Shown: positions 50,694-62,617 of the stretch, one piece after another
Position numbering within the stretch: position 1 is the stretch's first letter
Layout of the letters: each line of letters starts with the position of its first letter
From: Escherichia coli
GTDB lineage: Bacteria; Pseudomonadota; Gammaproteobacteria; Enterobacterales; Enterobacteriaceae
DNA length: 64,000 nucleotides
Assembly: GCF_003334305.1 (NCBI RefSeq)
Contig: NZ_QOWS01000018.1
Reading direction: 5' to 3' (one strand)
The notes under the pieces: model-generated
Database searches by the model: none
Seen by the model: the letters and a program-made list of their open reading frames with translations, nothing else
What the model was told of the DNA's origin: nothing
Translations under genes and position numbers: made by a program

Positions 50694-50744
50694 ATCATTG
50701 TTCTCCTGTTCAATGAACCACTTAGATAAGCATAGTCCGAAGAT

Positions 50745-52388
50745 ATGAAGCTGCTAGTGACATACATCAGGTGGAGTACTAAAGAGCAAGACTCAGGAGA
50801 CTCCTTAAGACGACAAACAAACCTCATTGATGCTTTCTACTCTAAGCACAAAAACGATTATTACCTTCTTCCTGCTCACAGATACGTTGATAAGGGTAAA
50901 TCTGGTTTTCACCAGCAACATAAGAATCAAGGTTCTGACTTCAGACGTATGTTTGAAAATGTTATGTCTGGGGCTATTCCAGAAGGTTCCCTGATTGTTG
51001 TAGAGAACTTTGACCGCTTCAGTAGGGCTGATATCGACACAGCTATAGATGATGTCAGGCAGATACTGAGGAAGGGAGTCTCTATACTGACTCTGGGAGA
51101 TGGTGAACTCTACGACAAGTCAGCATTAACAGACCCTGTGAAGCTGATTAAGCACATCATCATAGCTGAGCGAGCACATCAGGAATCTCTTGTTAAACAA
51201 AAGCGTATAGCTCAGGTCTGGAACCATAAAACACAGCTTGCAAGAGAACTTAAGAAGCCTATGGGTAAGCAAGCCCCCGGATGGTTAGAGCTATCAGAAG
51301 ACGGTTCACACTACATCGTTGATGAAGATAAAGCGTCACTGGTGAATATCATCTATGACAAGCGTCTTTCTGGTATGTCGATGTTTGCTATCTGCAAATG
51401 GCTAAACGAACAAGGTTACCCGACCATTAATCAGCGTAAGGTCAGAATATCCAAGACTAAGAAACCGGATGGTAACTGGTCAGCTTTAAGCGTTAAACAC
51501 ATCCTGACTTCACGAAGTGTATTAGGTTACCTTCCCGCTAAGATTTCTACAGAAGACCGTAAAACAGTGTTACGTGAAGAAATTGAAGGGTTCTATCCTC
51601 AGATTGTCACAGATTCTAAGTTTTACGCTGTACAGCAACTGTTAGAGGAAACAGGGAAGGGGAAAACATCCAGCGGTGACCACTGGTTATACGTGAACAT
51701 ACTGAAGGGGCTTATCCGTTGTAAGTGTGGGCTTGTAATGACTCCTACAGGGATACGTAAACCCGTTTATCAAGGTACTTACCGTTGCAATGGTAATAAG
51801 GAGTCCCGTTGTAGCTACGGTACAGTGTCCAGAAAGTTACTTGATACACAGCTTTGTAGTCGTCTGTTTAGCAAACTGTCACAGCTACACGATGAAGCTA
51901 CCGATACAGCTAAATTAGATGAACTACAAAGAAGATTAAACACCGTTGATGGTGAACTGGAAAAACTCACTGAGACGCTGATACAGCTTCCTAACATCAC
52001 TCAGATTCAAGAAGCACTACGGGTTAAACAGGAAGAAAAAGATGAACTGATAGTTCAGTTATCACGAGAAAAGGCGAGGGTAAAATCTGTATCAAGCTTG
52101 GATTTAAGCGGTCTTGATATGGAGTCTGTAGAGGGGAGAACTGAAGCCCAGATTATCATTAAGCGTCTGGTGAAAGAGATTGTTGTTTCTGGTAATGAAA
52201 AGCTGGTGGATATATATCTTCACAATGGAAATATGATTCGTGGTTTCCCTCTTGATGGTAAAGATGACCACACCTTAACGCTTGAAGAAGCAACCGATGA
52301 GATGCAGTCACTAGATGATATGCTTATTTTTGGTGAACCAGTAACAAGGATTTATCCTGCTGGTGATATGGAAGAGGTGGACGCTTAG
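50745..52388 (+). CDS. Large serine recombinase (integrase)
   Basis: 547 aa. N-terminal catalytic domain with YIRWSTKEQ (Ser nucleophile) and [11 protein letters not shown] recombinase domain, Cys-rich zinc-ribbon-like segment (CKCG...[14 protein letters not shown]) and a coiled-coil-like C-terminal region ([22 protein letters not shown]) follow. Confidence 0.88.
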
Positions 52389-53173
52389 TATTTTTTATTA
52401 GGGTTCACTGAGTACTTTTTAAGCTTTGAAGCTACTCGACCAGCGTTACTATTAGCATTGGTGACGTTGGTTTTTTCAGCTTCTGTTAAGTCTGAATAGT
52501 CCAGCTTCCAAGCCTTATTACACTTAATCTGAGCATCGAGAATATCATTTCTGATAGCTGGAGCGTAACCGGATACATCGCTAATACTCATTAGCTCTTT
52601 GCACGATAGCATAGGCGCGTTATTGCGTTCAGTGGTCACGTTACCTGCATTCTTCTTACTGGTCACACCACCATCATTCGTAGTCGCGGCTTTTCCAGTT
52701 GCAGCCGAGATATCAGTCTGCCCCACAACAGCTTTGAAGTTAATTTCCTGAAAAGTTAGTTGGATTCTTAATCCGTTTGAAATTCCAACATCTTTAGAGG
52801 CTTTAAAACTTGTGATAATGGAATCATCAATTTTAATTCCGTCTTTACAGATGACAGAAATAATCTGCTTCTGGTCACGCCAGTTTTCCAGAGTGTCAAT
52901 GAAGTTCTCTACTAATTGACCCTGACGAGTTAATAGTAAGCTTCCTTCATAACCAACTACAACGACACCACTGATAGTGATTGTTCTGGGTGCTCTTTGA
53001 ACATTATCTGTGACGGTTTGCCCTGATTGCATGTTCTGTGTAGTCACCTGCATAGGGCTATCAAATTCCATATTTTCAGTTGCTGATAAGGTTAAGAAGG
53101 CATCTACATTATCTCTTAAGTGGAAGTAAACGCCATCTTTGCCACTGTAGCGGATTTGATTGCTAAAAATCAT
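52385..53173 (-). CDS. Putative distal-tail/baseplate (Dit-like) protein
   Basis: Start set at ATG 53173, with AAGGAG six nt upstream, rather than the track's TTG at 53194. It lies immediately downstream of the tape-measure gene. The segment [34 protein letters not shown] resembles, from memory, the N-terminal pattern of Dit-like tail proteins. Not verified. Confidence 0.45.
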
Positions 53174-53190
53174 TAAATTCTCCTTTGATT

Positions 53191-53234
53191 TCAAAGGCTT
53201 AGTGTATTTTAATCATTTTTAACCAAGCCTTTGA
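53191..53234 (-). promoter_or_regulatory. 5'-leader hairpin preceding the Dit-like gene RBS
   Basis: Perfect 10-bp inverted repeat TCAAAGGCTT (53191-53200) / AAGCCTTTGA (53225-53234) with a 24-nt loop, between repeat cassette R1 and the RBS. Confidence 0.5.
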
Positions 53235-53253
53235 TATATAAGTATTTTCTCTG

Positions 53254-53323
53254 TTAAGCGTGAGCTACGTAAATTCTATTTTTCAGTGCGGGTATTAACT
53301 TTGCTTTATTCACGTAGAACACC
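53254..53323 (-). promoter_or_regulatory. Repeat cassette R1 (promoter-like) upstream of the Dit-like gene
   Basis: 70 bp, about 88% identical by eye to 55517-55586. On the gene strand it carries TAGAAT (complement of 53273-53278) with no good -35, plus CTACGTGAA and TACGTA boxes. Confidence 0.55.
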
Positions 53324-53329
53324 GTTAAA

Positions 53330-55498
53330 TCAATCATCTTCTGGGAATGATGAACTTAATAACGTAGCTTCTGCATATTGGTCGTAGATATTACTGCTAA
53401 AGGTCATAAAGCTGGTTTCATCTGGTTTAATGGCAACTTCACCACCAAGTGAAACTTTCACAGGCTCCTGAATACGCTTACTTAAAGCAGAGATTTCATC
53501 CCTCAGACCCTGAATATCTGCACTCGTTAATGCTGAATCTTGCTTAATGTTGTTTAATTCTGGATGATTGAATCTTGCAATATTCATTGTGGCATTGTTA
53601 AACAATTCACCCATTGAACTAAAAATTCTACTCCATCCTTCGTTAATCACATTCGGTTTATTAGGGTCACCAGAATACACAGGATTAAAGTCACTACCCA
53701 CACCTACCCCAGATGGATGCATATTAGCGTTTTTGACTACTTCCTGATTCATAAAATCCAGTGCTTTCTTCAATGCATATAAACCAAGAGTGACACCTCT
53801 GATTTGTGGAATCATTGAAGCTAATGCTAACGCTGTTTCATAACCGTCATCAGCATAACCAATTGCAAGAGCACTACCTACACCACCAGCTACACCTTTC
53901 AGTTTTCCACCACCTTTACCAGTAGCTACCTGACCAGCCACCTGATTAGCTCTTGTACCTAACGTTGTGATTGCTCTTGTCAGGTTCATAACCCCTGTAG
54001 TAGCACTGAATAGTGTCTTTGCAGATAACGCTATAGCAAGACCTTTGACGAAGTTGATAAATCCATCACCGACTTCATCAAGTAGCTTTCGCTTAGTGTC
54101 ATCAAGGCTGTAATAGGTCTTCTTAATCTGTAGAATCCAGCCTTCAAGGTGATTGTTAAAGATACGGATGTCATCTACACCAGCTTTAAGCATGTCGATA
54201 AGTCCACCGATAGCATCACCAGCGATAGAAGAACTCATACCCATTTCACTAAGCAGGTTACTCAGGCTGGATAAGAAGCCATTTAGCTCATCCTGTGAAC
54301 CTGAGAAGATTTTCACCATCGTATCATCCCAGTTGTTAGCCAGTTTCCCTAAAGCTGTCTGAGTGCTCTTAGCGACTTCAGCCCAGCCACCCGCTTTATC
54401 AATCATCAAGCCCATCTGTTTAGCGACTTTAGGGAGAGTATCACTACTTAAAATCTTCCCGTCTTTCATCGCTTTATCAAGCTCTGTAGCAGTCATACCC
54501 AGTGCTTCAGCGAATAGCTTAAATGCACCAGCCATACGGTCACCTAACTGACCACGAAGCTCTTCAGCCTGAATCTTGCCCTTGCTCGCCATCTGCTCAA
54601 ATGCTTTCAAAATGCCGTTTAGCTCATCGTTAGAAAGCCCCATTAAGCGACTCATAGCCGTTGCATTACCAAATAGCTCCTGTGTCTGTTCCTGTGACAT
54701 AGAACCCTGAGCACCTGCTGCAAACTTAGCGTAGCTTGATAGCCCTTCAGAGATATTAAGACCTGTCTTGTCTGCTAAATTTCGAATAAATACCTCAGCT
54801 TCAGATGCTTTATCACCAAGTACAAACTTAGCGGCTCTCTGTGCGGAATCTCGTTTAAGACCTGCATTCATGATGGCCTTGTAAGCGTTAAGAGCACCCA
54901 TCACAGAGTAAAATGCACCAGATAACTTGATTGCATTGCTTGCAAGATTATTAAATGCGTCGCTTGTATTGTTAATGCTGGTGGATGTATGACCTTTAGC
55001 TTTAGCAATTGCTTCTCTGACTGAAGCATTTAACTGAGTCAGCTTCTCATTGAATTTTGAAGAATCCATTGACCCAGCTTTAGCAGATAGCCCGTAAAAC
55101 TGAGATTTGATGTATTTCTGCAAAATAGGGTCAAAGCCTTTTAGCTTAGACATATTAGCTGAGTAAGCCGCTGTGATTGCTCTGTTGCCGCTAATTCGTG
55201 GCTGTCTTGGTTGTCTAAGTGGCTTTAAAGTGTCATCAATTTCCGTTTTAATCTTAAACGCTCTAGTGTTTTTAAGACGCTGCTCAATCTTGGAAACAGT
55301 TTTATCGACATTCTTTTCCATTAGTTTGAGAGAATCATTTAAAGGCGTAGGGTTAACTCTGAATGCCTTATTTAGTCGTTTCTCAATTCTTGATGCGATT
55401 TGCATCGTTTGTTTCTCGGCTTTTTCCAAGCCTTTTAAAACTTTCTGAGAGCTAAAACTTAGCTCAATCAAAAAATCATCAACTTTAAATTGTGCCAT
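53330..55498 (-). CDS. Phage tail tape-measure protein
   Basis: 722 aa, Ala/Gly/Leu-rich and predicted largely helical. The segment LNGILKAFEQMASKGKIQAEELRGQLGDRMAGAFKLFAEALGMTATELDKAMKDGKILSSDTL matches the conserved tape-measure core domain as I recall it (TIGR02675-type). A Gly-rich tract GKGGGKLKGVAGGVG follows. RBS is AAGAGGTG. Confidence 0.85.
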   Translation of the reverse strand: MAQFKVDDFLIELSFSSQKVLKGLEKAEKQTMQIASRIEKRLNKAFRVNPTPLNDSLKLMEKNVDKTVSKIEQRLKNTRAFKIKTEIDDTLKPLRQPRQPRISGNRAITAAYSANMSKLKGFDPILQKYIKSQFYGLSAKAGSMDSSKFNEKLTQLNASVREAIAKAKGHTSTSINNTSDAFNNLASNAIKLSGAFYSVMGALNAYKAIMNAGLKRDSAQRAAKFVLGDKASEAEVFIRNLADKTGLNISEGLSSYAKFAAGAQGSMSQEQTQELFGNATAMSRLMGLSNDELNGILKAFEQMASKGKIQAEELRGQLGDRMAGAFKLFAEALGMTATELDKAMKDGKILSSDTLPKVAKQMGLMIDKAGGWAEVAKSTQTALGKLANNWDDTMVKIFSGSQDELNGFLSSLSNLLSEMGMSSSIAGDAIGGLIDMLKAGVDDIRIFNNHLEGWILQIKKTYYSLDDTKRKLLDEVGDGFINFVKGLAIALSAKTLFSATTGVMNLTRAITTLGTRANQVAGQVATGKGGGKLKGVAGGVGSALAIGYADDGYETALALASMIPQIRGVTLGLYALKKALDFMNQEVVKNANMHPSGVGVGSDFNPVYSGDPNKPNVINEGWSRIFSSMGELFNNATMNIARFNHPELNNIKQDSALTSADIQGLRDEISALSKRIQEPVKVSLGGEVAIKPDETSFMTFSSNIYDQYAEATLLSSSFPEDD

Positions 55499-55516
55499 TG
55501 TTCATATTTCACCTCT

Positions 55517-55586
55517 TTAAGCGTGAGCTACGTAAATTCTATTTTTCAGTGTGGGTATTAGCTTTACAGATTTCACGTAGCACACA
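55517..55586 (-). promoter_or_regulatory. Repeat cassette R2 (promoter-like) upstream of the tape-measure gene
   Basis: Second copy of the 70-bp cassette. TAGAAT (complement of 55536-55541) lies about 38 nt upstream of the TMP ATG, directly downstream of a terminator. Confidence 0.55.
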
Positions 55587-55616
55587 TAGGATTCGATAGA
55601 AGACTATCTCATATAC

Positions 55617-55656
55617 AAAAAAGGAGAGTTACCGATGTCACTCGATAATCTCTCCC
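55617..55656 (-). terminator. Rho-independent terminator ending the 236-aa/71-aa transcription unit
   Basis: On the minus strand, GGGAGAGATTA...TAACTCTCC forms a hairpin (stems at 55650-55655 and 55623-55628) followed by a T6 run (55622-55617). Confidence 0.7.
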
Positions 55657-55699
55657 GTAGATTTTTACCCAACCAATTCTATTAGAAGCTAATCTCAAA

Positions 55700-55915
55700 T
55701 TAATGGTAAACGTAAGAATACATCCCATCATCACCTAAAATCTGTGCGTCACATGGTAATTTATCTAAGCACCATGAAGGAATCTTACGTACCTTTGGTT
55801 TATGTGAGGTGATAACTTGATGCTGATTTTTAATTCGTAGCTTTGGTTTAGTCTGAAGCTTTAAGTTCTCACAAACAGACTTAATAAGTTCATAGCGTTC
55901 TGTTAAATCAATCAT
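55700..55915 (-). CDS. Hypothetical protein (71 aa)
   Basis: ORF MIDLTERYELIKSVCENLKLQTKPKLRIKNQHQ... with RBS AAGAGGTGG. No family recognised. Confidence 0.6.
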   Translation of the reverse strand: MIDLTERYELIKSVCENLKLQTKPKLRIKNQHQVITSHKPKVRKIPSWCLDKLPCDAQILGDDGMYSYVYH

Positions 55916-55938
55916 TCACCACCTCTTTTAATTCATAG

Positions 55939-56649
55939 TTAAAGTGCCTTGCTATATTTCTGAGAAATCTTCACTAACTGCTCAATATCAGCCTGCATAG
56001 CAATCTTCTTCTGCGTTTCATATGCAGAAATAAGCTCTTTCATAGCCTGAAGCTCTCTTGAGAGATACAACTTAACATTTTCAAGTTGCTTGTTACGTGA
56101 TGCCAAGATGTTCTGTCTGGCAAGTTCAGCGAGTTCTTCATCGCTCTTATTAGTCGTGTAAATAAACTGACCAGCACCCCTTGAAGCTTTAACCATCTTC
56201 ACAATTCGATATCCAGCAGGAAGACTACTAATCACGGCTGCGACGTTTTCTTGAAAAGTACCAAAACCATCATTGTCTTCGTATGTGAAGTAAACATACG
56301 GCTTCTGTGACAATTCATCCTGAATCTCAAATTCTGACGGCTCAATAGCTGATTGCATCAGGGTAACTTTACTGTAAGCATCATCTAGTTTAATACGCTG
56401 TGCTTTTAGCAGTGGGTAATATTCACGCTCAAGCTCAAGTAATGCTTCAGTTTTGCATACATCAGGCATCTCTTGAGGCTCAGGAGACACAAAGATGATT
56501 TCCTTTGGTGACATTCGGATTTCTTGCTCAAGCTTAATTCTTTCATCGTGTTCTTTACGCTGAATAGCGATAGCTGGATGTTCAGTCTGTGGCGACCAGT
56601 CACCGAAGCTATCAATCACTTTGCCATTAATGTAAATATCATTTGTCAT
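55939..56649 (-). CDS. Hypothetical protein (236 aa) with a coiled-coil-like C-terminus
   Basis: ORF MTNDIYINGKVIDSFGDWSPQTEHPAIAIQ... with RBS GAGGAA. The C-terminal 70 aa are heptad-rich (LENVKLYLSRELQAMKELISAYETQKKIAMQADIEQL). No family recognised. Confidence 0.7.
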   Translation of the reverse strand: MTNDIYINGKVIDSFGDWSPQTEHPAIAIQRKEHDERIKLEQEIRMSPKEIIFVSPEPQEMPDVCKTEALLELEREYYPLLKAQRIKLDDAYSKVTLMQSAIEPSEFEIQDELSQKPYVYFTYEDNDGFGTFQENVAAVISSLPAGYRIVKMVKASRGAGQFIYTTNKSDEELAELARQNILASRNKQLENVKLYLSRELQAMKELISAYETQKKIAMQADIEQLVKISQKYSKAL

Positions 56650-56679
56650 TGTTTTTTCCTCTTCTAAGCTAAAGTATTT

Positions 56680-56765
56680 CAGTTTTTAAAAAGCACACCT
56701 GACAGCCTATCTAAACTTAGAAGAGACTTAAAAGGCGGTTTGCCAAGTATGCTTTTTAAAAGCTG
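56680..56765 (-). promoter_or_regulatory. Long inverted repeat in the leader of the 236-aa gene
   Basis: Arms CAGTTTTTAAAAAGCACAC (56680-56698) and GTATGCTTTTTAAAAGCTG (56747-56765) are complementary at about 17 of 19 positions, separated by about 48 nt. Confidence 0.5.
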
Positions 56766-56801
56766 AAAAAGCCCTAGATAACTAAAACGCTATAAAGGGC
56801 T
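56765..56801 (-). terminator. Attenuator-like hairpin plus T-run inside the leader
   Basis: On the minus strand, AGCCCT (56801-56796), a 20-nt loop, AGGGCT (56775-56770), then TTTTT (56769-56765). Located about 115 nt upstream of the 236-aa gene start. Confidence 0.4.
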
Positions 56802-57008
56802 AAGGTGAAGAAATTAAAACATCTAAAGGATTCAATAACGAATGAACAAAGACTTTTCGAGATAGCCTCTCAGGTTGTATAAGAGGCCATGTAGCGAAAA
56901 GCATTGCACCTTTCAGAATGTTCGGTATAGAACATACCTCACCAACTCAGAATATCCATCCATCGGATTATTGAAATAAATAAGAGAGAAATTCTCTCTA
57001 TAATTAAA

Positions 57009-57037
57009 ATTATGTCATGCTTAAGGTTATTTGTCAA
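57009..57037 (-). promoter_or_regulatory. Sigma70-type promoter (minus strand)
   Basis: TTGACA (complement of 57032-57037), a 17-bp spacer, then CATAAT (complement of 57009-57014). Followed at about +3 by the palindrome AGAGAGAA-A-TTCTCTCT (56983-56999). Confidence 0.55.
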
Positions 57038-57062
57038 CAGCTTTTTAACAGATTGGTAACAT

Positions 57063-57128
57063 TTATACTTTAATAGATGCACCTGCAATCATACCAATCA
57101 ACACAAAACAGAGAATCACCAATTCCAT
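57063..57128 (-). CDS. Candidate 21-aa hydrophobic peptide
   Basis: Hand-translated: MELVILCFVLIGMIAGASIKV. Its ATG overlaps the TAA of the upstream gene (TAATG), suggesting translational coupling. Confidence 0.4.
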   Translation of the reverse strand: MELVILCFVLIGMIAGASIKV

Positions 57129-57451
57129 TAATGCACCACCTTCGAATCCGTAACCAGAATATTATCGCTGTACAAAATTGCTATAGCCGCCTTGAGATAT
57201 TTTTCAGGGCTAACGCTGTATTTGTTCGTTTGCTCGACAACCAATCTTTTCATGTTGCTGTCTTTAATTGGTAGCATCATTCGAGGCTCGTTAAACTCCA
57301 CCGACTGAATAAAGTCAGAGATGCTTTCCGCATTATCAGTCATTAACTCTAACAACTTATCAAAGTCAATGCTAACACCTACATCAGTGAAAGCCTGAAT
57401 CATCATGGCGGTGTCGGTATCAATAAAAATCTGTAATTCGTAATTGTTCAT
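57128..57451 (-). CDS. Hypothetical acidic protein (107 aa)
   Basis: Start set at ATG 57451 (MNNYELQIFIDTD) with AAGGAG upstream. The track's TTG start at 57484 is rejected. No family recognised. Confidence 0.65.
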   Translation of the reverse strand: MNNYELQIFIDTDTAMMIQAFTDVGVSIDFDKLLELMTDNAESISDFIQSVEFNEPRMMLPIKDSNMKRLVVEQTNKYSVSPEKYLKAAIAILYSDNILVTDSKVVH

Positions 57452-57606
57452 TTTTAAAATCTCCTTTTTACCAGACCTCCTCAATCGCTCTGTAACGAGC
57501 TAAACAGTCTTTTTCAGGGGTAGCCTGTACAGTGGTATTACCCACCCTAAAATAAGATAGTTTTTTGCGTCAGAATGCGATTGAGAGCGTCTGAGAAGCT
57601 GTTTTT

Positions 57607-57894
57607 CTAATTTCTCTTAAAGTCTCGGACTTGCATAAGATTTTTTGGTCTGGTATCGGCTCTGTTACCATTTCGATGGATAATTTGCTTGTTGGATTGA
57701 TAGCCATGATAAAGAAACCAGACAACATATTTCACGTAGAAAGTATATCGGCCTATATTAAATGTTTTGTTGCCGTAGTCGTCGGTGTTTATCGTGACTG
57801 ACTCTCCATCAGACCAGCACAGGGAATCACTGGATTCATCATAGATAAGGTGTTCTGCAAAATATCTTCTAACATCTTCATTCCAAGGTTTCAT
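57607..57894 (-). CDS. HNH-like small protein (degenerate motif)
   Basis: 95 aa. YVVWFLYHGYQSNKQIIHRNGNRADTRPKNL resembles the HNH_3-type pattern (aHRlvw...G..idHiNGn..DNR..NL), but the usual Asp preceding the His and the DNR Asn are substituted. Confidence 0.5.
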   Translation of the reverse strand: MKPWNEDVRRYFAEHLIYDESSDSLCWSDGESVTINTDDYGNKTFNIGRYTFYVKYVVWFLYHGYQSNKQIIHRNGNRADTRPKNLMQVRDFKRN

Positions 57895-58106
57895 AAAACC
57901 TCCTCACCCCAATAACCTAATTCAATCTTGTGACGCTCAAACCATTCCGGTTTAACTGCTGTTTTCAGTACTTCATTTGGGCCAATGGCTTTAATGAAAA
58001 TATCTTTTGAGTTATGGATGTCACCGAATCCGTTTCCTTCAATCAGGAGGTCGGAGATGTAGCGAATCATTTTATCCGTGTGGTATTCAAAGGTAACGCA
58101 TAGCAT
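57891..58106 (-). CDS. Hypothetical protein (71 aa)
   Basis: ORF coupled at both ends: TAATG with the upstream gene and ATGA with the downstream gene. No family recognised. Confidence 0.6.
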   Translation of the reverse strand: MLCVTFEYHTDKMIRYISDLLIEGNGFGDIHNSKDIFIKAIGPNEVLKTAVKPEWFERHKIELGYWGEEVL

Positions 58107-58387
58107 TAAACCTCCAGAGACAGCTTGTGAATCTTAAGACTCAATAGACGGGCAATATCAATTTTAAAGCCGTTAAGTCCCTTCAAAGTATCTAAAGCGT
58201 CCTGAGTAATTCGGATGTGTTTACGACCTTTAGAGACTGGATATTTAAGTAAATCCGACTCAGTAACCTCTTTAGCAATTGCAAGCTGCATAACAGTCTG
58301 ATGAGGTAAGTTAGTAGCTCGTTTAATTCTGGCAAGCTCGTTAAAAGCTTCCTCTGAAATGCGGGTTAAAGTGTGTTTGTTTTTCAT
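58106..58387 (-). CDS. Putative tandem ribbon-helix-helix DNA-binding protein (93 aa)
   Basis: Two internal segments look like an RHH beta-strand plus helix: KHTLTRISEEAFNELARIKR and RKHIRITQDALDTLKGLNG. Inference from the pattern only. Confidence 0.4.
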   Translation of the reverse strand: MKNKHTLTRISEEAFNELARIKRATNLPHQTVMQLAIAKEVTESDLLKYPVSKGRKHIRITQDALDTLKGLNGFKIDIARLLSLKIHKLSLEV

Positions 58388-58388
58388 T

Positions 58389-58943
58389 TTAAAATTCCTC
58401 TGTAACTAAATACGGGTCAAATTCAAAGTCTGGTTCACTGGTTGTAAGGCTGATATTTCCAACTTCCGCATGATGATTAATTGTCTCAATAACTTTCATG
58501 CAAATAGTGGCTAAGTTAGCGCAATATTTATCACTTGGTAATTCGTAGCTAAGTCTGGTTGCTTGTCTTTGAAGATGGCTCGTCACTGTGCTTGAACTAA
58601 TCTCATCAAGACTTCGCAGTAAATAAAAAACCTTCCGGTGATAATTATCTCTTCCAAGACTGCGACAAGTACCGATAATTACATCTTCAATTCGTGGCGG
58701 TAATTGCTCGTAAGAATCAAAGCCCATCAAGAAAGTTTTTAAAGTATTCTCTTTTTCTTTGCGTGCTGGCATAAATCTGTCTCGTGGCGTAATGCTACGA
58801 ATGACCGCTTCAATGTTCTTACGTTCGGATTTGCTAAAGGTTGGGACTTCGTAGCTGGTGGGGGTGTCTGTGTGGCTGTAACCGTTGTGTCTGTTGCGTT
58901 CTCTTGATGCCTGAAGCATCGCTCTAAATTCTCTGTCGTTCAT
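58389..58943 (-). CDS. Hypothetical protein (184 aa), first gene of the leftward operon
   Basis: ORF MNDREFRAMLQASRERNRHNGYSHTD... directly downstream of the promoter at 58994-59022. No family recognised. Confidence 0.65.
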   Translation of the reverse strand: MNDREFRAMLQASRERNRHNGYSHTDTPTSYEVPTFSKSERKNIEAVIRSITPRDRFMPARKEKENTLKTFLMGFDSYEQLPPRIEDVIIGTCRSLGRDNYHRKVFYLLRSLDEISSSTVTSHLQRQATRLSYELPSDKYCANLATICMKVIETINHHAEVGNISLTTSEPDFEFDPYLVTEEF

Positions 58944-58993
58944 TCATAAGCTAGTCCTTATAATTGTTAATTCTCTGTTAACTTATATATACA

Positions 58994-59022
58994 ATACTAG
59001 CATTTTCAAAGACTAATGTCAA
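58994..59022 (-). promoter_or_regulatory. Sigma70-type promoter of the leftward operon
   Basis: TTGACA (complement of 59017-59022), a 17-bp spacer, then TAGTAT (complement of 58994-58999). Confidence 0.6.
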
Positions 59023-59029
59023 GCATTTT

Positions 59030-59059
59030 TTAACATTTCATTAACATCTGTGGTATAAT
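59030..59059 (+). promoter_or_regulatory. Divergent extended -10 promoter (rightward)
   Basis: TTAACA (59030-59035), then TGG-TATAAT (TG at 59051-59052, TATAAT at 59054-59059). Back-to-back with the leftward promoter. Confidence 0.55.
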
Positions 59060-59186
59060 GGTTCTATGGGGAGAGTAAAATATAAAGGCGTGGCTATGAG
59101 GTTTATTCGATAGGGGTTGGTACAAGCCCAACCAACCGAATCAACTATGTATGTCACATGGTATTGCATTGCACACAGGAAATTTA

Positions 59187-59363
59187 ATGGTAAATCTCCC
59201 TCCTGAACTGGGGTCACCTGATGTATGGGCTGGTGGAGGTATCGGGCTGATTGCAGGTCTGTTACTCCGCTACGTCCTTGTCAGAGTGCTTGTTGTGTTC
59301 CGATTGTTCGGTCGTACATGGACGCTTGACCTTAAGGATAATGAGCACACAGAACCCCGTTAA
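59187..59363 (+). CDS. Candidate small membrane protein (58 aa; 70 aa if started at 59151)
   Basis: MVNLPPELGSPDVWAGGGIGLIAGLLLRYVLVRVLVVFRLFGRTW... contains one hydrophobic helix. AGGAA lies 5 nt upstream of ATG 59187, while the ATG at 59151 has no RBS. The local composition is more GC-rich than its neighbours. Confidence 0.45.
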   Translation: MVNLPPELGSPDVWAGGGIGLIAGLLLRYVLVRVLVVFRLFGRTWTLDLKDNEHTEPR

Positions 59364-59406
59364 GCTCCCTTCAAATCCCCCTGTACGAGATGGCATAGGG
59401 GTGTCT

Positions 59407-59422
59407 TTAGCATTTTGTGCTA
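59407..59422. promoter_or_regulatory. Operator-like inverted repeat TTAGCA-N5-TGCTA
   Basis: TTAGCATTTTGTGCTA. The 18-nt box TCTTTAGCATTTTGTGCT (59404-59421) recurs at 60678-60695, and each copy is followed by (A)CTTGACA(G/A)AA. Confidence 0.45.
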
Positions 59423-59483
59423 TCTATTAAAAAATAACTTGACAGAACCGGAAAGCTGTATCTATCAGGTATTCACCTCTCTG

Positions 59484-59559
59484 ACAGTAACTTCTAAAAG
59501 TTCTTATTTTTCAATGAGTTGTAATCACCCATATATAGAGAACTGACAAGTCTCTTCAC
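59484..59559 (+). repeat. 76-bp direct repeat, copy 1
   Basis: ACAGTAACTTCTAAAAGTTCTTATTTTTCAATGAGTTGTAATCACCCATATATAGAGAACTGACAAGTCTCTTCAC. About 89% identical to copy 2, and the last 31 nt are identical. Confidence 0.9.
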
Positions 59560-59578
59560 AATTAACTCTGTAACCTTA

Positions 59579-59654
59579 ACAGTGATTTCTAAAAATGCTT
59601 ATTTTTCAATAAGTTGTAATTAGCCATATATAGAGAACTGACAAGTCTCTTCAC
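59579..59654 (+). repeat. 76-bp direct repeat, copy 2
   Basis: ACAGTGATTTCTAAAAATGCTTATTTTTCAATAAGTTGTAATTAGCCATATATAGAGAACTGACAAGTCTCTTCAC. The period is 95 bp. Confidence 0.9.
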
Positions 59655-59971
59655 GGAGAACTTCCTGGACTCACTAAGATACAAGGCGATAACCCCAGAA
59701 AGGGAGAGCCACCTTCTAATTGGTATTGTTATGAGGATGCTTCATCCGAATCATCTACCAATCCCTAAACCGACTTCTTAAACAATCTTTACAGACCCCG
59801 TTCACCAGTCTCAATATTTTTATTTCTCGCTCTTCGTTTGTTGCTCGTTTCTATTATTGAGGGGGTTTGAAAAACCTCTGTAAAATAACCCTTCCAGTAA
59901 AAAGCGAATAACCCCAGAGAGGGGGAATCGCCTCTTTAACATTCTCATAATCAGTGCTCTATATGAGAATT

Positions 59972-60640
59972 TCAGCCCAACCTTTGAACAATCTTGTAAG
60001 TGGTGCTTAGAGGCATTCTTAGCGATTCTGCGATGCTCTTGACGGATTGCCCTTGGCCATGCAGTTTAATCAGCCTGTCAAGCGTCTGTGCATCGTGTAT
60101 ATGAGGTCTTCCACGTAAACCACCCCTGTTAACCACGGCAAGTAAAAGCATTGTGTCGCCACAATAGATTGTTTGTGTAACTTCAACCTTCGGTTTACGG
60201 GGTGTGTTCCTGTATATCAAAACGCAACTTGCAAACGGTGAACGCACTACAACACCTTTCTTCCCTGCTGGTGGAAGGTATTTGACTGCTCGGTGTAACG
60301 TTCGAATCTCATGCAGAAAGGGGTTTGTATATACACACCGAAGCCAGTAAGTTGTCTTTGACCTGTGCGGAACCAGACATACACACACATCAGCTTCATG
60401 GGATTTTAGGAGGAACCTTTCAGCCATGCTAAACGGCGGGTTAACGAAGACCCGTTCACCAACCCATGATTGATTGTGAATATCATCGGTGAACCGTGGC
60501 AACAATGCGTCATGCTCAGTTGCAGCACCATCCATCGAAAAACCAAATTCACGGTGTAGGTTACGAAATAAACGATACGGTGTACGCCAGTCATCAGAAC
60601 CACCATGATAACGACCGACATTGATTATTGGATGTGACAC
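59972..60640 (-). CDS. Phage Dam-type N6-adenine DNA methyltransferase fused to a C-terminal HTH
   Basis: 222 aa with a GTG start. SDDWRTPYRLFRNLHREFGFSMDGAAT and VFVNPPFS (NPPF catalytic motif) fit the phage Dam family (pfam05869-like, from memory). The C-terminal GQSVKSIAESLRMPLSTTYKIVQRL looks like a resolvase-type HTH. Confidence 0.75.
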   Translation of the reverse strand: MSHPIINVGRYHGGSDDWRTPYRLFRNLHREFGFSMDGAATEHDALLPRFTDDIHNQSWVGERVFVNPPFSMAERFLLKSHEADVCVCLVPHRSKTTYWLRCVYTNPFLHEIRTLHRAVKYLPPAGKKGVVVRSPFASCVLIYRNTPRKPKVEVTQTIYCGDTMLLLAVVNRGGLRGRPHIHDAQTLDRLIKLHGQGQSVKSIAESLRMPLSTTYKIVQRLG

Positions 60641-60677
60641 AAGCGAAGCGCCCCTCTTAGTATATTTCTTAATCGTC

Positions 60678-60724
60678 TCTTTAGCATTTAGTGCTTTTTG
60701 TTAAGTTTAGCACTTTTTGCTAAA
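60678..60724. promoter_or_regulatory. Two operator-like inverted repeats upstream of the methyltransferase gene
   Basis: TTAGCATTTAGTGCT (60681-60695) and the perfect TTTAGCA-CTTTT-TGCTAAA (60706-60724), followed by TTGACA at 60735-60740. Confidence 0.45.
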
Positions 60725-61142
60725 GACAAAACACTTGACAAAATGGTAAGATTGTTCACATGACCTTACTTAACAGATTCTTAAGAGCTTTGAAACGAAC
60801 TGTTTAACAAGGTCACTACCTCTGGTCTTATCGTTCCCTCTCTTCTTGGTAGTTCTGTTAAGTATCTTTTCAGGTATCTCTTACAGTCACTGTTAAGATA
60901 GAACCTACCTTCGGTTTCATGGTTCTCTTCCTCCCGTTAAATATCCCTTCACAGTCAGACTAAATAACACCTCTGTAGTTTCTTGGTAGAATCTTTCAAG
61001 GTAACTTAACTCTGAGTTTATGAAGTTGACCTTAGTCAATGTTTGTGAAGGTGTTACAGAGCATGTTCTCTAGGTCTGTGTAGCTCACTAAGCGAGAGAG
61101 GGGATATGTGACCATAGGGGAACCCCTCCTGTTAAAAGTTTC

Positions 61143-61170
61143 TTGATGTTATCATCACAATATGTATAAT
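61143..61170 (+). promoter_or_regulatory. Sigma70-type promoter (plus strand) in an ORF-free region
   Basis: TTGATG (61143-61148), a 16-bp spacer, then TATAAT (61165-61170). Confidence 0.55.
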
Positions 61171-61176
61171 CACCAA

Positions 61177-61337
61177 CTGTACAGACACCTTAACGGTTTC
61201 TCTACACCTCACTATGGCTAGGTAGGGTATGGTTTAGCTTGGTACGGCTAGGTTAGGTCTGGTTTGGTTAGGTATGGGTGGATTGTCGTAGCCACGTTAA
61301 AAATCGACTTATAGGGACTCTTTCGGGAGTCCTTTTT
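61177..61337 (+). ncRNA. Candidate ~160-nt small RNA with tandem 15-nt G/T-rich units
   Basis: Bounded by the promoter at 61143-61170 and the terminator at 61315-61337. It contains no ORF longer than 5 codons. Five consecutive 15-nt units begin at 61216, 61231, 61246, 61261 and 61276 (GGCTAGGTAGGGTAT / GGTTTAGCTTGGTAC / GGCTAGGTTAGGTCT / GGTTTGGTTAGGTAT / GGGTGGATTGTCGTA). Confidence 0.35.
61315..61337 (+). terminator. Rho-independent terminator (plus strand)
   Basis: GGACTC (61315-61320), loop TTTCGG, GAGTCC (61327-61332), then TTTTT (61333-61337). Confidence 0.65.
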
Positions 61338-61541
61338 AGTTTGTATAAAATCTGTACAGGAGTTATCAGGCTTCTAAAATTTTTATAAAAAATAATCAGA
61401 CCTCTTCTAAGCCTCTTCAACCAAATCTTTCGAAAATATCTGACAGATGTCTGTAGCTGCTAAGTACCCGTCACACCAGCTATGTGACCCCCTTGGCAAA
61501 AAAGCCAAATATCAGCTACATCCATGTAACTATTCAGTAAC

Positions 61542-62093
61542 TTATTTAGCAAGTCTGTAATAAGTTGCTCTAGAGATTCCTAACTCTTCCTGAATCTGCA
61601 ACCTCGTCTTACCTTGTGAAATAAGCGTCTGTACAGCCTCTGAAGAAGCCTTTACAGGCCTCCCCATATGTACCCCTTCAGCTTTAGCACGTTCAATACC
61701 AGCCTTTCTACGCTCTGCTATCAAGCTTCTTTCAAGCTGTGCCAACGTTGACATAATGCCTAACATTGCTTCACCCATAGCGCTTGATAAGTCAAACCCT
61801 TCTCTAAGGCTGATAACTGTCACACCTTTAGCCTGTAGCGCTTTAACCGTTGATAACACATCAATTGTGTCACGTCCAAGACGGTCTACAGCTACCACAA
61901 CTACGGTGTCACCTTCTCGTGCATAAGCTAACAAACTACTGAAACCGTTTCTTAAAGAAGCTTTGACAGAACCACTGACAGCTTCATCAGTGAACCATTT
62001 AGCAATGTTGTACCCTGCCTCTTCAATTTGCATTTGCTGGTTAGTGATGGATTGGTCATCTGTACTCACCCTGCAATATCCAAGTATCGCCAT
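61542..62093 (-). CDS. Small serine recombinase (resolvase/invertase family)
   Basis: 183 aa. MAILGYCRVSTDDQ (Ser nucleophile), VVAVDRLGRD, an E-helix LAQLERSLIAERRKAGIERAKAEG, GRP, and a C-terminal HTH ISRATYYRLAK. Confidence 0.9.
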   Translation of the reverse strand: MAILGYCRVSTDDQSITNQQMQIEEAGYNIAKWFTDEAVSGSVKASLRNGFSSLLAYAREGDTVVVVAVDRLGRDTIDVLSTVKALQAKGVTVISLREGFDLSSAMGEAMLGIMSTLAQLERSLIAERRKAGIERAKAEGVHMGRPVKASSEAVQTLISQGKTRLQIQEELGISRATYYRLAK

Positions 62094-62107
62094 ACATCCC
62101 CCTTAGA

Positions 62108-62231
62108 AGTCTCAAAAGTTAGTCTCATAAGTTTAGCTGTCTCATAATCCAAAAACAACCTTTTGAGACTACTTGAGGGTGCATTCTACCGTTACGTTGA
62201 AAGTGTCTCAAAAGGAAGTCCTTTTAAGACT
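62108..62231. promoter_or_regulatory. res-like cluster of recombinase binding sites
   Basis: There are six GTCTCA / T(G/A)AGAC half-sites. They include a 28-bp inverted pair TGTCTCAAAAGGAAGTCCTTTTAAGACT (62204-62231), a 33-bp inverted pair TGTCTCATAATCCAAAAACAACCTTTTGAGACT (62138-62170), and AGTCTCAAAAGTTAGTCTCATAA (62108-62130) next to the recombinase start. Confidence 0.6.
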
Positions 62232-62427
62232 GGTTATGAAGGAGCTATGAAGATTTTAGGAGGGTAACTATAACCATCACTTTCTAACTTTCACGTAGGA
62301 AATCGTTAAGTTTCTTGATAGTTACACCATGTGACCAACTATCTATATATCGTTATATAGCCCTGTATATAACACTTTTCTAGGAGTCGAGAGAGGGACG
62401 ACTAACACGATACAGTTTACCCTGAAA

Positions 62428-62447
62428 AGAGACTTCACAGATTCTCT
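62428..62447. repeat. Inverted partial third copy of the 76-bp repeat core
   Basis: AGAGACTTCACAGATTCTCT compares with the reverse complement of AGAGAACTGACAAGTCTCT (59537-59555 and 59632-59650). It is flanked by TCTCTATATAT and TTCAATAAGTT, which are also shared with the repeats. Confidence 0.7.
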
Positions 62448-62610
62448 ATATATTTCAATAAGTTAGGCTAAAAAGAGACTATACCGATACTGTATAGAAT
62501 CTGTGTAGAATTGCTTAGATACTTGGAAAAATGCCTTTAAATTGAATAGGTACTAACCTGTTTATGTCCTGTTATTAACAGGTAGTTGAATGTACGTGTT
62601 TAGCTATGTA

Positions 62611-62617
62611 AAAGCAC
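62611..62617. repeat. attR junction core (AAAGCAC)
   Basis: Identity with the native wrbA 5' end as recalled resumes here (AAAGCACCAGAACTTTAGCCAT is the complement of ATGGCTAAAGTTCTGGTGCTTT). Confidence 0.75.

What the first reader, a model, noticed from the sequence alone, without database searches (positions are those of the whole stretch)
53254..55586. 70-bp near-identical cassette placed in front of both the tape-measure and the Dit-like gene
53254-53323 and 55517-55586 are about 88% identical by eye: TTAAGCGTGAGCTACGTAAATTCTATTTTTCAGTG(C/T)GGGTATTA(A/G)CTTT...TTCACGTAG(A/C)ACA. On the gene strand each copy gives a TAGAAT -10 element without a convincing -35. Upstream of that sit CTACGTGAA and, closer in, a TACGTA palindrome. 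The copy before the TMP gene follows a clear rho-independent terminator (55617-55656). Each late gene therefore seems to have its own copy of an activator-dependent, late-type promoter. The Dit copy is followed by an extra perfect 10-bp-stem leader hairpin (53191-53234). Direct repeats of this size are also potential deletion or recombination substrates.
Basis: seen in the sequence. Interest (0 to 1): 0.55.

Follow-up and report, generated by a model that had tools for sequence, protein, structure and literature searches.

The report
Portable 70-bp promoter-operator cassette, duplicated
The two 70-bp repeats are real copies of a discrete regulatory cassette, most likely a promoter lacking a -35 element framed by a fixed 53-bp inverted repeat, and the same unannotated inverted-repeat module also sits next to cre in phage P1 and in other unrelated phages.

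Summary
53254-53322 and 55517-55585 are 61/69 identical, with the first 35 nt identical, and there are no other copies in the window. They lie on the gene (minus) strand just upstream of the Dit-like and tape-measure genes of a ~12 kb island inserted in wrbA of E. coli A7.

Each cassette is a 53-bp inverted-repeat module (CTACGTGAA...TTYACGTAG) plus a 3' box (CTCACGCTTAA). A TAnnnT hexamer sits exactly 2 nt before the right arm in all 29 unique island copies. There is no -35.

The copy upstream of the tape-measure gene is an exact 70-bp insertion/deletion, absent from about half of related islands. The Dit copy is almost always present.

The arms and the 53-bp spacing recur in phage P1 (between promoter pR1 and cra-cre), in other phage-plasmids and in a GC-rich phage. 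One arm is invariant upstream of gene 18.5 in four T7-like phages compared.

No covariation supports an RNA hairpin. There is no Rfam hit, no match to P1 Lpa-type late promoters, and no copy in the likely helper (a Felix O1-like phage).

Best reading, at about 50% confidence: a portable, factor-dependent promoter/operator. The factor that binds the arms is unknown.

The parts
55516..55585 (-). TMP-upstream ('T') cassette: the exact 70-bp insertion/deletion unit GTGTGCTACG...CACGCTTAAA
   Evidence: Direct repeat. Close relatives such as L044 (TMP 93% identical) lack exactly these 70 bp, with junction CCTAT(G)|AGGTG. Distant islands show the same empty junction.
55528..55580 (-). T copy: 53-bp inverted-repeat module CTACGTGAAATCTG-N25-TAGAATTTACGTAG
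   Evidence: Pattern CTACGTRAA-N-TYACGTAG matches only at the two cassettes; 0 expected by chance.
55567..55580 (-). T copy left arm CTACGTGAAATCTG (about -51 to -38)
   Evidence: Identical to the canonical arm found in P1-like phage-plasmids and to the invariant 15-mer of T7-like phages.
55536..55541 (-). T copy candidate -10 hexamer TAGAAT
   Evidence: The hexamer at this fixed position is TAnnnT in 29/29 unique island T/B copies (TATTTT, TAGAAT, TAGATT, TAATTT, TAGTTT). Third-site and non-island modules have G, C or A at its first position.
55517..55536 (-). T copy right-arm core TTTACGTAG plus 3' box CTCACGCTTAA (spanning the predicted start site and the first transcribed bases)
   Evidence: Most conserved block of the cassette across islands. 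A related GCACGCTT box follows the module in L095 and L099.
55510..55515 (-). Ribosome-binding site GAGGTG of the tape-measure gene, directly abutting the cassette
   Evidence: Sequence; retained in islands with and without the cassette.
55616..55656 (-). Intrinsic terminator ending the upstream 236-aa/71-aa operon
   Evidence: Fold -18.6 kcal/mol, z -2.6, followed by a T-run. Other islands have different upper stems with the same fold; conserved in alignment A1.
53330..55498 (-). Tape-measure protein gene (722 aa), bracketed by the two cassettes
   Evidence: PF20155 TMP_3, E 5e-22; about 30% identical over full length to Felixounavirus TMPs.
53254..53323 (-). Dit-upstream ('B') cassette
   Evidence: Direct repeat; a module is present upstream of the Dit-like gene in 75/76 island loci.
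53265..53317 (-). B copy: 53-bp inverted-repeat module (left arm CTACGTGAATAAAG 53304-53317; TAGAAT 53273-53278; right arm 53265-53273)
53191..53234 (-). 13-bp-stem hairpin in the leader of the Dit-like gene. Its 3' arm could alternatively pair with the ribosome-binding region (CCUUUG-AAAU-CAAAGG); that alternative was read by eye and not tested.
   Evidence: z -4.2; one-sided substitutions mostly keep pairing in 7 islands; absent in the L004-type islands.
52385..53173 (-). Dit-like / baseplate protein gene (262 aa)
   Evidence: PF21821 Dit_like, E 2e-20; about 76% identical to the gene next to the TMP gene in Felix O1-like phages.
62285..62304 (-). Remnant of a third module: GATTTC-CTACGTGAAAGTTA (left arm only in A7)
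   Evidence: In L047/L057 the same context carries a full 53-bp module with an unrelated interior and the 3' box ACACGCTTAGAGAG; in L039 it carries a 97-bp version.

Best explanation
Each 70-bp cassette is a portable transcription-control unit. It holds a weak, -35-less sigma-70-type promoter whose -10 (TAGAAT here, TAnnnT throughout the family) has been carved out of the right arm of a 53-bp inverted-repeat module. Transcription would start in or next to the ACGTAG of the right arm. The conserved CTCACGCTTAA would then be the first transcribed bases, followed by the TMP ribosome-binding site or by the Dit leader hairpin. The two arms (consensus GTG(A/C)(C/G)G-CTACGTRAAATCTG, at about -51 and about +1) are read as operator/activator sites for a sequence-specific DNA-binding factor that needs the fixed spacing. 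That factor would make the promoter conditional, for example on helper infection. The Dit copy is the resident one. The TMP copy arose by copying the unit into the gap between the terminator and the TMP ribosome-binding site, giving TMP an input that does not depend on terminator read-through. Shown: the repeat, its anatomy, the fixed geometry, the conservation of TAnnnT, the indel polymorphism and the wider distribution of the module. Inferred: promoter activity, the start site, DNA-level rather than RNA-level recognition, and the existence and identity of the factor.
For: (1) TAnnnT is invariant in 29/29 unique island T/B copies while the three inner bases vary. Third-site and non-island modules have G/C/A at the first position, so the island right arm looks remodelled towards a -10. 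(2) Arm-to-arm length is 53 bp in all 31 unique copies counted (one further island copy is 54 bp), despite four unrelated interior variants plus a fifth at the third site. In an unbiased gap scan of IMG/VR the only true class is 53 bp: 19 unique, against about 2 per other length. (3) All copies point the same way as the genes. The T copy sits 21 nt from the RBS-ATG and immediately after a verified terminator. (4) The homologous module in phage P1 overlaps the annotated cre promoter P3cre/pR1, whose -10 (TAAAAT) lies inside the left arm, so such arms do serve as promoter parts. (5) In other phages the module ends 10-45 nt before a start codon, the usual distance for a promoter or operator. (6) There is no covariation in the arms (score 0.101 vs 0.114 in shuffles). 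The left arm keeps its consensus sequence even where the right arm has diverged and arm positions 10-14 no longer pair, which fits sequence-specific recognition better than a hairpin.
Against: There is no -35, and the consensus scan does not call a promoter. No transcript data exist. The T copy is absent in 31 of 65 islands, which keep only the terminator in front of TMP, so it is not essential. Most non-island modules lack TAnnnT at the equivalent position, so the module itself is not a promoter. No candidate regulator is shared between the island and the other module-bearing phages, and no known transcription-factor motif could be assigned. The G.U pair at arm position 7 on the gene strand (19 of 31 copies) is also compatible with an RNA stem.
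Confidence: 0.5

Rival explanations
1. RNA element: the cassette acts after transcription as a hairpin (9-14 bp stem, ~33-nt loop) in the TMP leader and in the TMP-Dit intercistronic RNA. It could be a processing site, a stabiliser, or a binding site for an RNA-binding factor that controls translation.
For: Arm positions 1-9 can pair in every copy. Position 7 is G.U or G-C on the gene strand in 30 of 31 copies, and the third-site copies keep pairing through U.G and G.U. The T copy folds better than shuffles (z -3.1). In T7-like phages the single conserved arm lies in the mRNA leader of gene 18.5, just after an RNase III site, and can pair with the start of the coding region.
Against: No covariation: 410 of 500 shuffles reach the observed score. 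The B copy folds no better than shuffles (z -1.0). Positions 10-14 are mostly unpaired in the islands while the left arm keeps its sequence. If the internal -10 is used, the left arm is not transcribed. The T copy lies after a terminator. The strict 53-nt length is not expected for a loop whose sequence is free. In P1-like modules the wobble falls on the strand opposite to cra. There is no Rfam hit.
Confidence: 0.17
2. A DNA site for a process other than transcription, such as recombination, packaging or replication, or a conserved 'linker' that lets the TMP module be swapped between islands by homologous recombination.
For: The cassettes bracket the most divergent gene of the island (TMP 38-97% identical, with flanking genes also varying) and are themselves mosaics of exchangeable sub-blocks. 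P1 has a single copy beside lox-cre. Several phage-plasmids have it directly upstream of Cre-like recombinase genes. In T7 and L100 it follows the small-terminase gene. A 27-bp mini-insertion has hit the same point of the arm twice.
Against: The module always has the polarity and distance of a 5' control region. The interior and TAnnnT conservation are not explained. No TMP deletion or inversion product was seen in 59 islands. The known P1 lox and pac sites are elsewhere. No recombinase or terminase is common to all contexts.
Confidence: 0.15
3. A selfish miniature element (MITE-like) or a neutral duplication with no function of its own.
For: It is a discrete 70-bp unit with imperfect terminal inverted repeats (GTGTG-CTACGTGAA / TTACGTAG-CTCACGC) and a clean filled/empty polymorphism at the T site.
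Against: No consistent target-site duplication. Copies occur only at two or three fixed positions of one island family, always in gene orientation. They never occur elsewhere in 5,426 E. coli genomes or on plasmids, and all true pattern hits lie in islands. The interior diverges freely while the arms, spacing and TAnnnT are kept, which indicates selection on function.
Confidence: 0.08

Closest known systems
Phage P1 cre regulatory region (promoter pR1 = P3cre, upstream of cra-cre)
   Same: Homologous module: GCGCTACGTAAAATCTG-N19-CAGATTTCGCGTAGCGC, 53 bp arm to arm, about 36 nt before the cra start codon. The interior is partly alignable with the island cassette in the reverse orientation. It overlaps a mapped sigma-70 promoter.
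   Different: Single copy in the whole P1 genome. The -10 (TAAAAT) lies in the left arm, not the right arm. The inverted repeat itself is not annotated in the P1 record, and no function for it was found in the literature searched.
Invariant CTACGTGAAATCTGA upstream of gene 18.5 (spanin) in T7-like phages
   Same: The 15-nt arm is identical in the four genomes compared (T7, a T3-like phage and two Klebsiella Przondovirus) while neighbouring non-coding bases vary. T7 also has TAGAAT...TTACGTA at the 53-bp position.
   Different: Only one arm is conserved. The partner lies in coding sequence and is lost in the Klebsiella phages. The region is transcribed by T7 RNA polymerase. Function unknown.
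Activator-dependent late promoters of P2/P4-type phage-satellite pairs (Ogr/Delta; good -10, no -35, upstream dyad). From general knowledge.
   Same: Works-like analogy: satellite genes driven by -35-less promoters that need a factor bound to an upstream dyad.
   Different: The defining TGT-N12-ACA dyad at about -55 is not present (read directly). Here the dyad arms bracket the promoter, 53 bp apart.
P1 Lpa-dependent late promoters
   Same: A -10 hexamer without a -35, in a phage that also carries the module.
   Different: The defining 9-bp -22 box (AAGTGACTT) placed 4 bp upstream of the -10 is absent from the cassette.
PeSL mobile regulatory cassettes of T4-type phages (promoter-early plus stem-loop units that flank genes and mediate shuffling). 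From memory, not tested.
   Same: Short (~70 bp) repeated promoter-containing units placed in front of individual genes. Copies flank a variable gene and are mosaic.
   Different: PeSLs have a complete sigma-70 early promoter followed by a stem-loop. Here there is no -35, and the inverted repeat brackets the promoter. The sequences are unrelated.

Membership tests
Canonical sigma-70 promoter | -10 hexamer with A at position 2 and T at position 6 | tested here: met
   TAGAAT in both copies; TAnnnT in 29/29 unique island T/B copies.
Canonical sigma-70 promoter | -35 hexamer 16-18 bp upstream, or a TGn extended -10 | tested here: not met
   The consensus scan finds none at either cassette. The -35 position falls in the variable interior. 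The nearest TG is 5 nt upstream of the hexamer.
53-bp inverted-repeat module (defined in this work) | Arms CTACGTRAA / TTYRCGTAG in inverted orientation | tested here: met
   Both copies; same arms in P1, L095-L107.
53-bp inverted-repeat module (defined in this work) | Outer arm-to-arm length of 53 bp (+/-1) | tested here: met
   53 bp in both copies and in all 31 unique copies counted; 53 is the only enriched true class in scans allowing gaps of 10-71 nt.
P1 Lpa-type late promoter | 9-bp -22 box (AAGTGACTT-like) 4 bp upstream of the -10 | tested here: not met
   Six annotated P1 late promoters compared; the cassette has AAAAA/CTGAA at that place.
P2 Ogr / P4 Delta-type late promoter | TGT-N12-ACA dyad centred near -55 | tested here: not met
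   Read directly from the sequence: TGT + 12 nt is followed by ATC, not ACA.
Helper (Felix O1-like) phage promoter copied into the island | The same motif recurs upstream of helper genes | tested here: not met
   No cassette or module in phage DE7 (best nhmmer E 0.2; no arm with <=1 mismatch); no blastn hit in 50,697 phage records. Only one Felix O1-like genome was read in full.
Structured RNA family (Rfam) or conserved RNA hairpin | Match to a curated model, or covariation in the stem | tested here: not met
   No Rfam hit at E<=10 or E<=1; covariation no better than shuffles.
Intrinsic terminator | G+C-rich hairpin followed by a T-run | tested here: not met
   The cassette hairpin has a 33-nt loop and no T-run. 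The true terminator is the separate element at 55616-55656.
MITE-like mobile element | Terminal inverted repeats | tested here: met
   GTGTG-CTACGTGAA... / ...TTACGTAG-CTCACGC.
MITE-like mobile element | Target-site duplication and many dispersed copies | tested here: not met
   No consistent duplication at the filled/empty junction. Copies occur only at fixed positions of one island family.
PeSL-type mobile regulatory cassette | Complete early promoter (-35 and -10) followed by a stem-loop | tested here: not met
   No -35. The only stem-loop downstream is the Dit leader hairpin, which is absent from the T copy.
Functional promoter (any class) | Transcription start downstream of the -10 | not testable with these tools
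   Needs 5'-end mapping or reporter fusions.

The most novel reading that the evidence does not exclude
The ~20-bp arm (GTG(A/C)(C/G)G-CTACGTRAAATCTG), usually paired in inverted orientation exactly 53 bp apart, is the recognition site of one conserved, probably host-encoded, factor. Unrelated enterobacterial mobile elements would all plug into it: P1-type and other phage-plasmids at cre, T7-like phages at gene 18.5, a SU10/phiEco32-like phage, a GC-rich phage, and this Felix O1-linked island at its tail genes. That would be an unrecognised cis-regulatory signal shared across phages, carried here on a 70-bp unit that can be copied in front of new genes.
Probability: 0.3. Interest if true: 0.75.

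Novelty: new variant of a known kind. Interest (0 to 1): 0.58.

Why it matters
If the cassette is a conditional promoter, it shows how a minimal element that borrows only two tail genes from a virulent Felix O1-type phage times their expression. Natural 'filled' and 'empty' alleles provide ready-made controls for testing this. More broadly, a motif with fixed geometry that is shared by P1 (right beside the widely used cre gene), other phage-plasmids and this island, with one arm also invariant in T7-like phages, yet is unannotated and absent from Rfam, points to a common trans-acting factor that has not been linked to these phages. Identifying that factor would be directly testable by pull-down or EMSA with a 53-bp probe.

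Tried and rejected
- **Rfam:** scans of the island and of the P1/T7/other modules found nothing.
- **Helper-phage promoter:** no cassette or arm module in the Felix O1-like phage DE7, which has its own unrelated repeated early cassettes. blastn against 50,697 phage records also found nothing.
- **P1 Lpa-type late promoter:** the -22 box is unrelated.
- **RNA hairpin with covariation:** none.
- **MITE:** no target duplication and no dispersed copies.
- **Deletion substrate:** none of 59 islands has lost the TMP gene.
- **Shared regulator protein:** none between the island and the other module-bearing phages. The only hit is the expected Cin-type invertase match.
- **Other arm spacings:** the enriched 58-bp and 74-bp classes are homologous coding sequences, not modules.
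- **Arm-like 14-mer inside the HNH gene (57726-57739):** coding sequence with no partner arm.
- **Literature:** searches for a Felix O1 satellite, for satellites with tail genes, and for the arm sequence returned only a T7 construct sequence. The P1 genome paper is not held.
- **Known motifs compared by eye:** alternative sigma factors (sigma-32, sigma-E, sigma-28, sigma-54) and several E. coli transcription-factor motifs (CRP, LacI/GalR family, FruR, NagC, matS, SlmA, XerC arm, boxA, ops). None fits consistently. These are recollections, not tests.
Full report
**Where the finding sits**

The window is the chromosome of E. coli strain A7 (100% match). The two repeats lie in a ~12 kb island that interrupts the 5' end of wrbA (annotation; the displaced wrbA start is seen).

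The island encodes a large serine recombinase on the plus strand (50745-52388). On the minus strand it encodes:
- a Dit-like/baseplate protein (52385-53173; PF21821);
- a tape-measure protein (53330-55498; PF20155);
- a 71-aa and a 236-aa protein;
- an HNH endonuclease and several small unknown proteins;
- a DNA methyltransferase and a small serine recombinase.

The same island occurs at other chromosomal sites in other strains (yegR/yegS, dinB, yecE).

The Dit-like protein is about 76% identical to the gene that follows the tape-measure gene in Felix O1-like myoviruses. The tape-measure protein is about 30% identical over its full length to theirs. The island is therefore probably a satellite-like or interference element tied to Felixounavirus. 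I found no description of it.

**The observation**

The repeat is real. 53254-53322 and 55517-55585 match at 61 of 69 positions, and the first 35 nt are identical. These are the only two copies in the window, and none is expected by chance.

On the gene strand each copy reads: GTGT(G/T)-CTACGTGAA..(25 variable nt)..AAAAA-TAGAAT-TT-ACGTAG-CTCACGCTTAA.

In front of TMP the ribosome-binding site follows directly. In front of the Dit-like gene there is a 13-bp hairpin (53191-53234, z -4.2) and then the ribosome-binding site.

TACGTA is 2 nt downstream of TAGAAT, not upstream. It is the partner of CTACGTGAA in an inverted repeat that spans exactly 53 bp.

**Comparative anatomy within the island family**

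The cassette occurs in 403 of 5,426 complete E. coli genomes. It is always chromosomal and intergenic, and never appears in deposited phages.

Using a pattern anchored only on the 3' box, I collected island loci from IMG/VR, GTDB genomes and metagenomes. All true copies lie at the same two positions. Some islands have a third copy near the far end.

Among the 31 unique modules counted (29 T or B copies from the islands, one third-site copy and the related P1-like module of L095):
- The arm-to-arm length is always 53 bp, although the interior comes in four unrelated versions, with a fifth at the third site. One further island copy is 54 bp.
- Arm positions 1-9 are essentially invariant, and positions 10-14 are mostly non-complementary.
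- The hexamer placed 2 nt before ACGTAG is TAnnnT in all 29 T/B copies, and its three inner bases vary (TATTTT, TAGAAT, TAGATT, TAATTT, TAGTTT).

The T copy is an exact 70-bp insertion/deletion. Islands whose TMP is 93-97% identical to A7's have ...CCTAT(G)|AGGTG..., and very distant islands have the same empty junction.

In the sample, a module is present upstream of the Dit-like gene in 75 of 76 loci, but upstream of TMP in only 34 of 65. This sample is biased towards loci with at least one copy.

Some T copies end in CTTAACAGAG-GTG, the same sequence that follows B copies. That suggests the T copy was made by copying the B unit. No island has lost the TMP gene between the repeats.

**The module is not private to the island**

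An arms-only scan of IMG/VR found the same architecture in contigs that share no protein with the island. These include P1-like phage-plasmids, other phage-plasmids where the module lies 20-26 nt upstream of Cre-like recombinase genes, a SU10/phiEco32-like region, a site just after an Sf6-type small-terminase gene, and a GC-rich phage.

Their consensus arm is about 20 bp: GTG(A/C)(C/G)G-CTACGTRAAATCTG.

When the allowed gap was widened to 10-71 nt, 53 bp was the only genuine enriched length. It gave 19 unique sequences against about 2 per other length. The 58-bp and 74-bp peaks are conserved coding segments.

Phage P1 itself carries exactly one module, at nt 119-171, between promoter P3cre (pR1) and cra. 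The annotated -10 of that promoter (TAAAAT) lies inside the left arm, and the inverted repeat is not annotated.

A search of the literature by sequence led to T7. The 15-mer CTACGTGAAATCTGA is invariant upstream of gene 18.5 in all four genomes compared (T7, a T3-like phage and two Klebsiella T7-like phages). T7 also has TAGAAT...TTACGTA at the 53-bp position, inside the coding region.

L095 and L099 also share interior and 3'-box sequence with the island cassette.

**What it most likely is**

I read the features together as a -35-less promoter built into an operator-like module whose arms bind a sequence-specific factor. The features are:
- the fixed TAnnnT, and the change from G/C/A to T at its first position relative to third-site and non-island modules;
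- the gene-oriented placement just upstream of ribosome-binding sites, and just after a terminator for the T copy;
- the strict spacing despite free interior sequence;
- the P1 precedent of an arm acting as a -10.

- The two boxes are one bracket around the promoter.
- The motif is shared with unrelated phages and is absent from a Felix O1-like genome, so the factor is more likely host-encoded than helper-specific.
- It is not a P1 Lpa-type promoter.
- The T copy is an optional add-on.

**Rivals**

- **RNA hairpin.** This is the main alternative. G.U at arm position 7 on the gene strand and the leader position in T7-like phages favour it. Several points count against it. There is no covariation. 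The B copy folds no better than shuffles. The outer arm positions are unpaired. The length is strictly constrained. The left arm would not be transcribed from the internal -10.
- **Non-transcriptional DNA site or recombination linker.** This is suggested by the single P1 copy beside lox-cre, the neighbourhood of recombinase and terminase genes, and the mosaic cassettes around the most variable gene. It does not explain the polarity, the distance to start codons or the -10 signature.
- **Selfish or neutral element.** This fits the clean indel but not the restricted, oriented distribution or the pattern of constraint.

**Limits**

Nothing here shows transcription, DNA binding or RNA processing. 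The factor is unidentified. The motif comparisons with known regulators were made from memory and are not tests. Only one Felix O1-like genome was read in full. The island sample was gathered through the cassette's own 3' box.

Noticed in passing
window 50700-62630: A ~12 kb island splits wrbA. Its only phage structural genes are a Felix O1-like tape-measure gene and the adjacent Dit-like gene (no capsid genes). It also carries a large serine integrase, an HNH endonuclease, a methyltransferase and a small serine recombinase. The family integrates at four or more chromosomal sites and is present in about 9% of complete E. coli genomes. No description was found, so it is a candidate undescribed satellite or tail-interference element of Felixounavirus.
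   Followed up: partly
window 57009-57037 and 56677-56768 (minus strand): A near-consensus sigma-70 promoter (TTGACA-17-CATAAT with TG) is followed by an inverted repeat with 28-nt arms in the leader of the 236-aa gene. This is a possible control point for the operon that ends at the terminator before the TMP cassette.
   Followed up: no
window 61542-62300; L002 20619-21161: The small serine recombinase gene is in opposite orientation in A7 and in strain DCE7, and repeated TGAGAC motifs lie upstream of it in A7. This may be an invertible or rearranging segment at the far end of the island.
   Followed up: no
L008, L058, L071 (TMP-upstream copies) and L069 (third site): The same ~27-bp palindromic mini-insertion (TGATTCGGATAAGAATTATCCTCA with TGA duplicated) splits the left arm in three islands. 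In mirror image it splits the right arm of another module, at the same internal point of the arm.
   Followed up: partly
L112 (phage P1 AF234172) nt 119-171: P1 has a single, unannotated 53-bp inverted repeat between promoter P3cre and cra. The -10 of P3cre lies inside its left arm. It is conserved in P7 and other P1-like phage-plasmids.
   Followed up: partly
L113-L116 (T7, SH1, Klebsiella phages), upstream of gene 18.5: CTACGTGAAATCTGA is invariant in non-coding sequence between the RNase III site R18.5 and the gene 18.5 ribosome-binding site in the four T7-like genomes aligned. I found no described function.
   Followed up: partly
L022/L023 (phage vB_EcoM_DE7) about nt 80100-85400: The Felix O1-like phage has its own repeated early-gene cassettes (hairpin GGGGAGGGAATGACCTTCCCC followed by CTTAAACTAGGAGATTCAAAAATG). 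They are unrelated to the island cassette.
   Followed up: no
L012 and L025 (Shigella flexneri): The Dit-upstream cassette is truncated just upstream of TAGAAT and replaced there by unrelated sequence. By eye this looks like the end of an IS3-family insertion sequence.
   Followed up: no
window 53174-53203: The 3' arm of the Dit leader hairpin could alternatively pair with the ribosome-binding region (CCUUUG-AAAU-CAAAGG), which might act as a translational switch. This was read by eye only.
   Followed up: no
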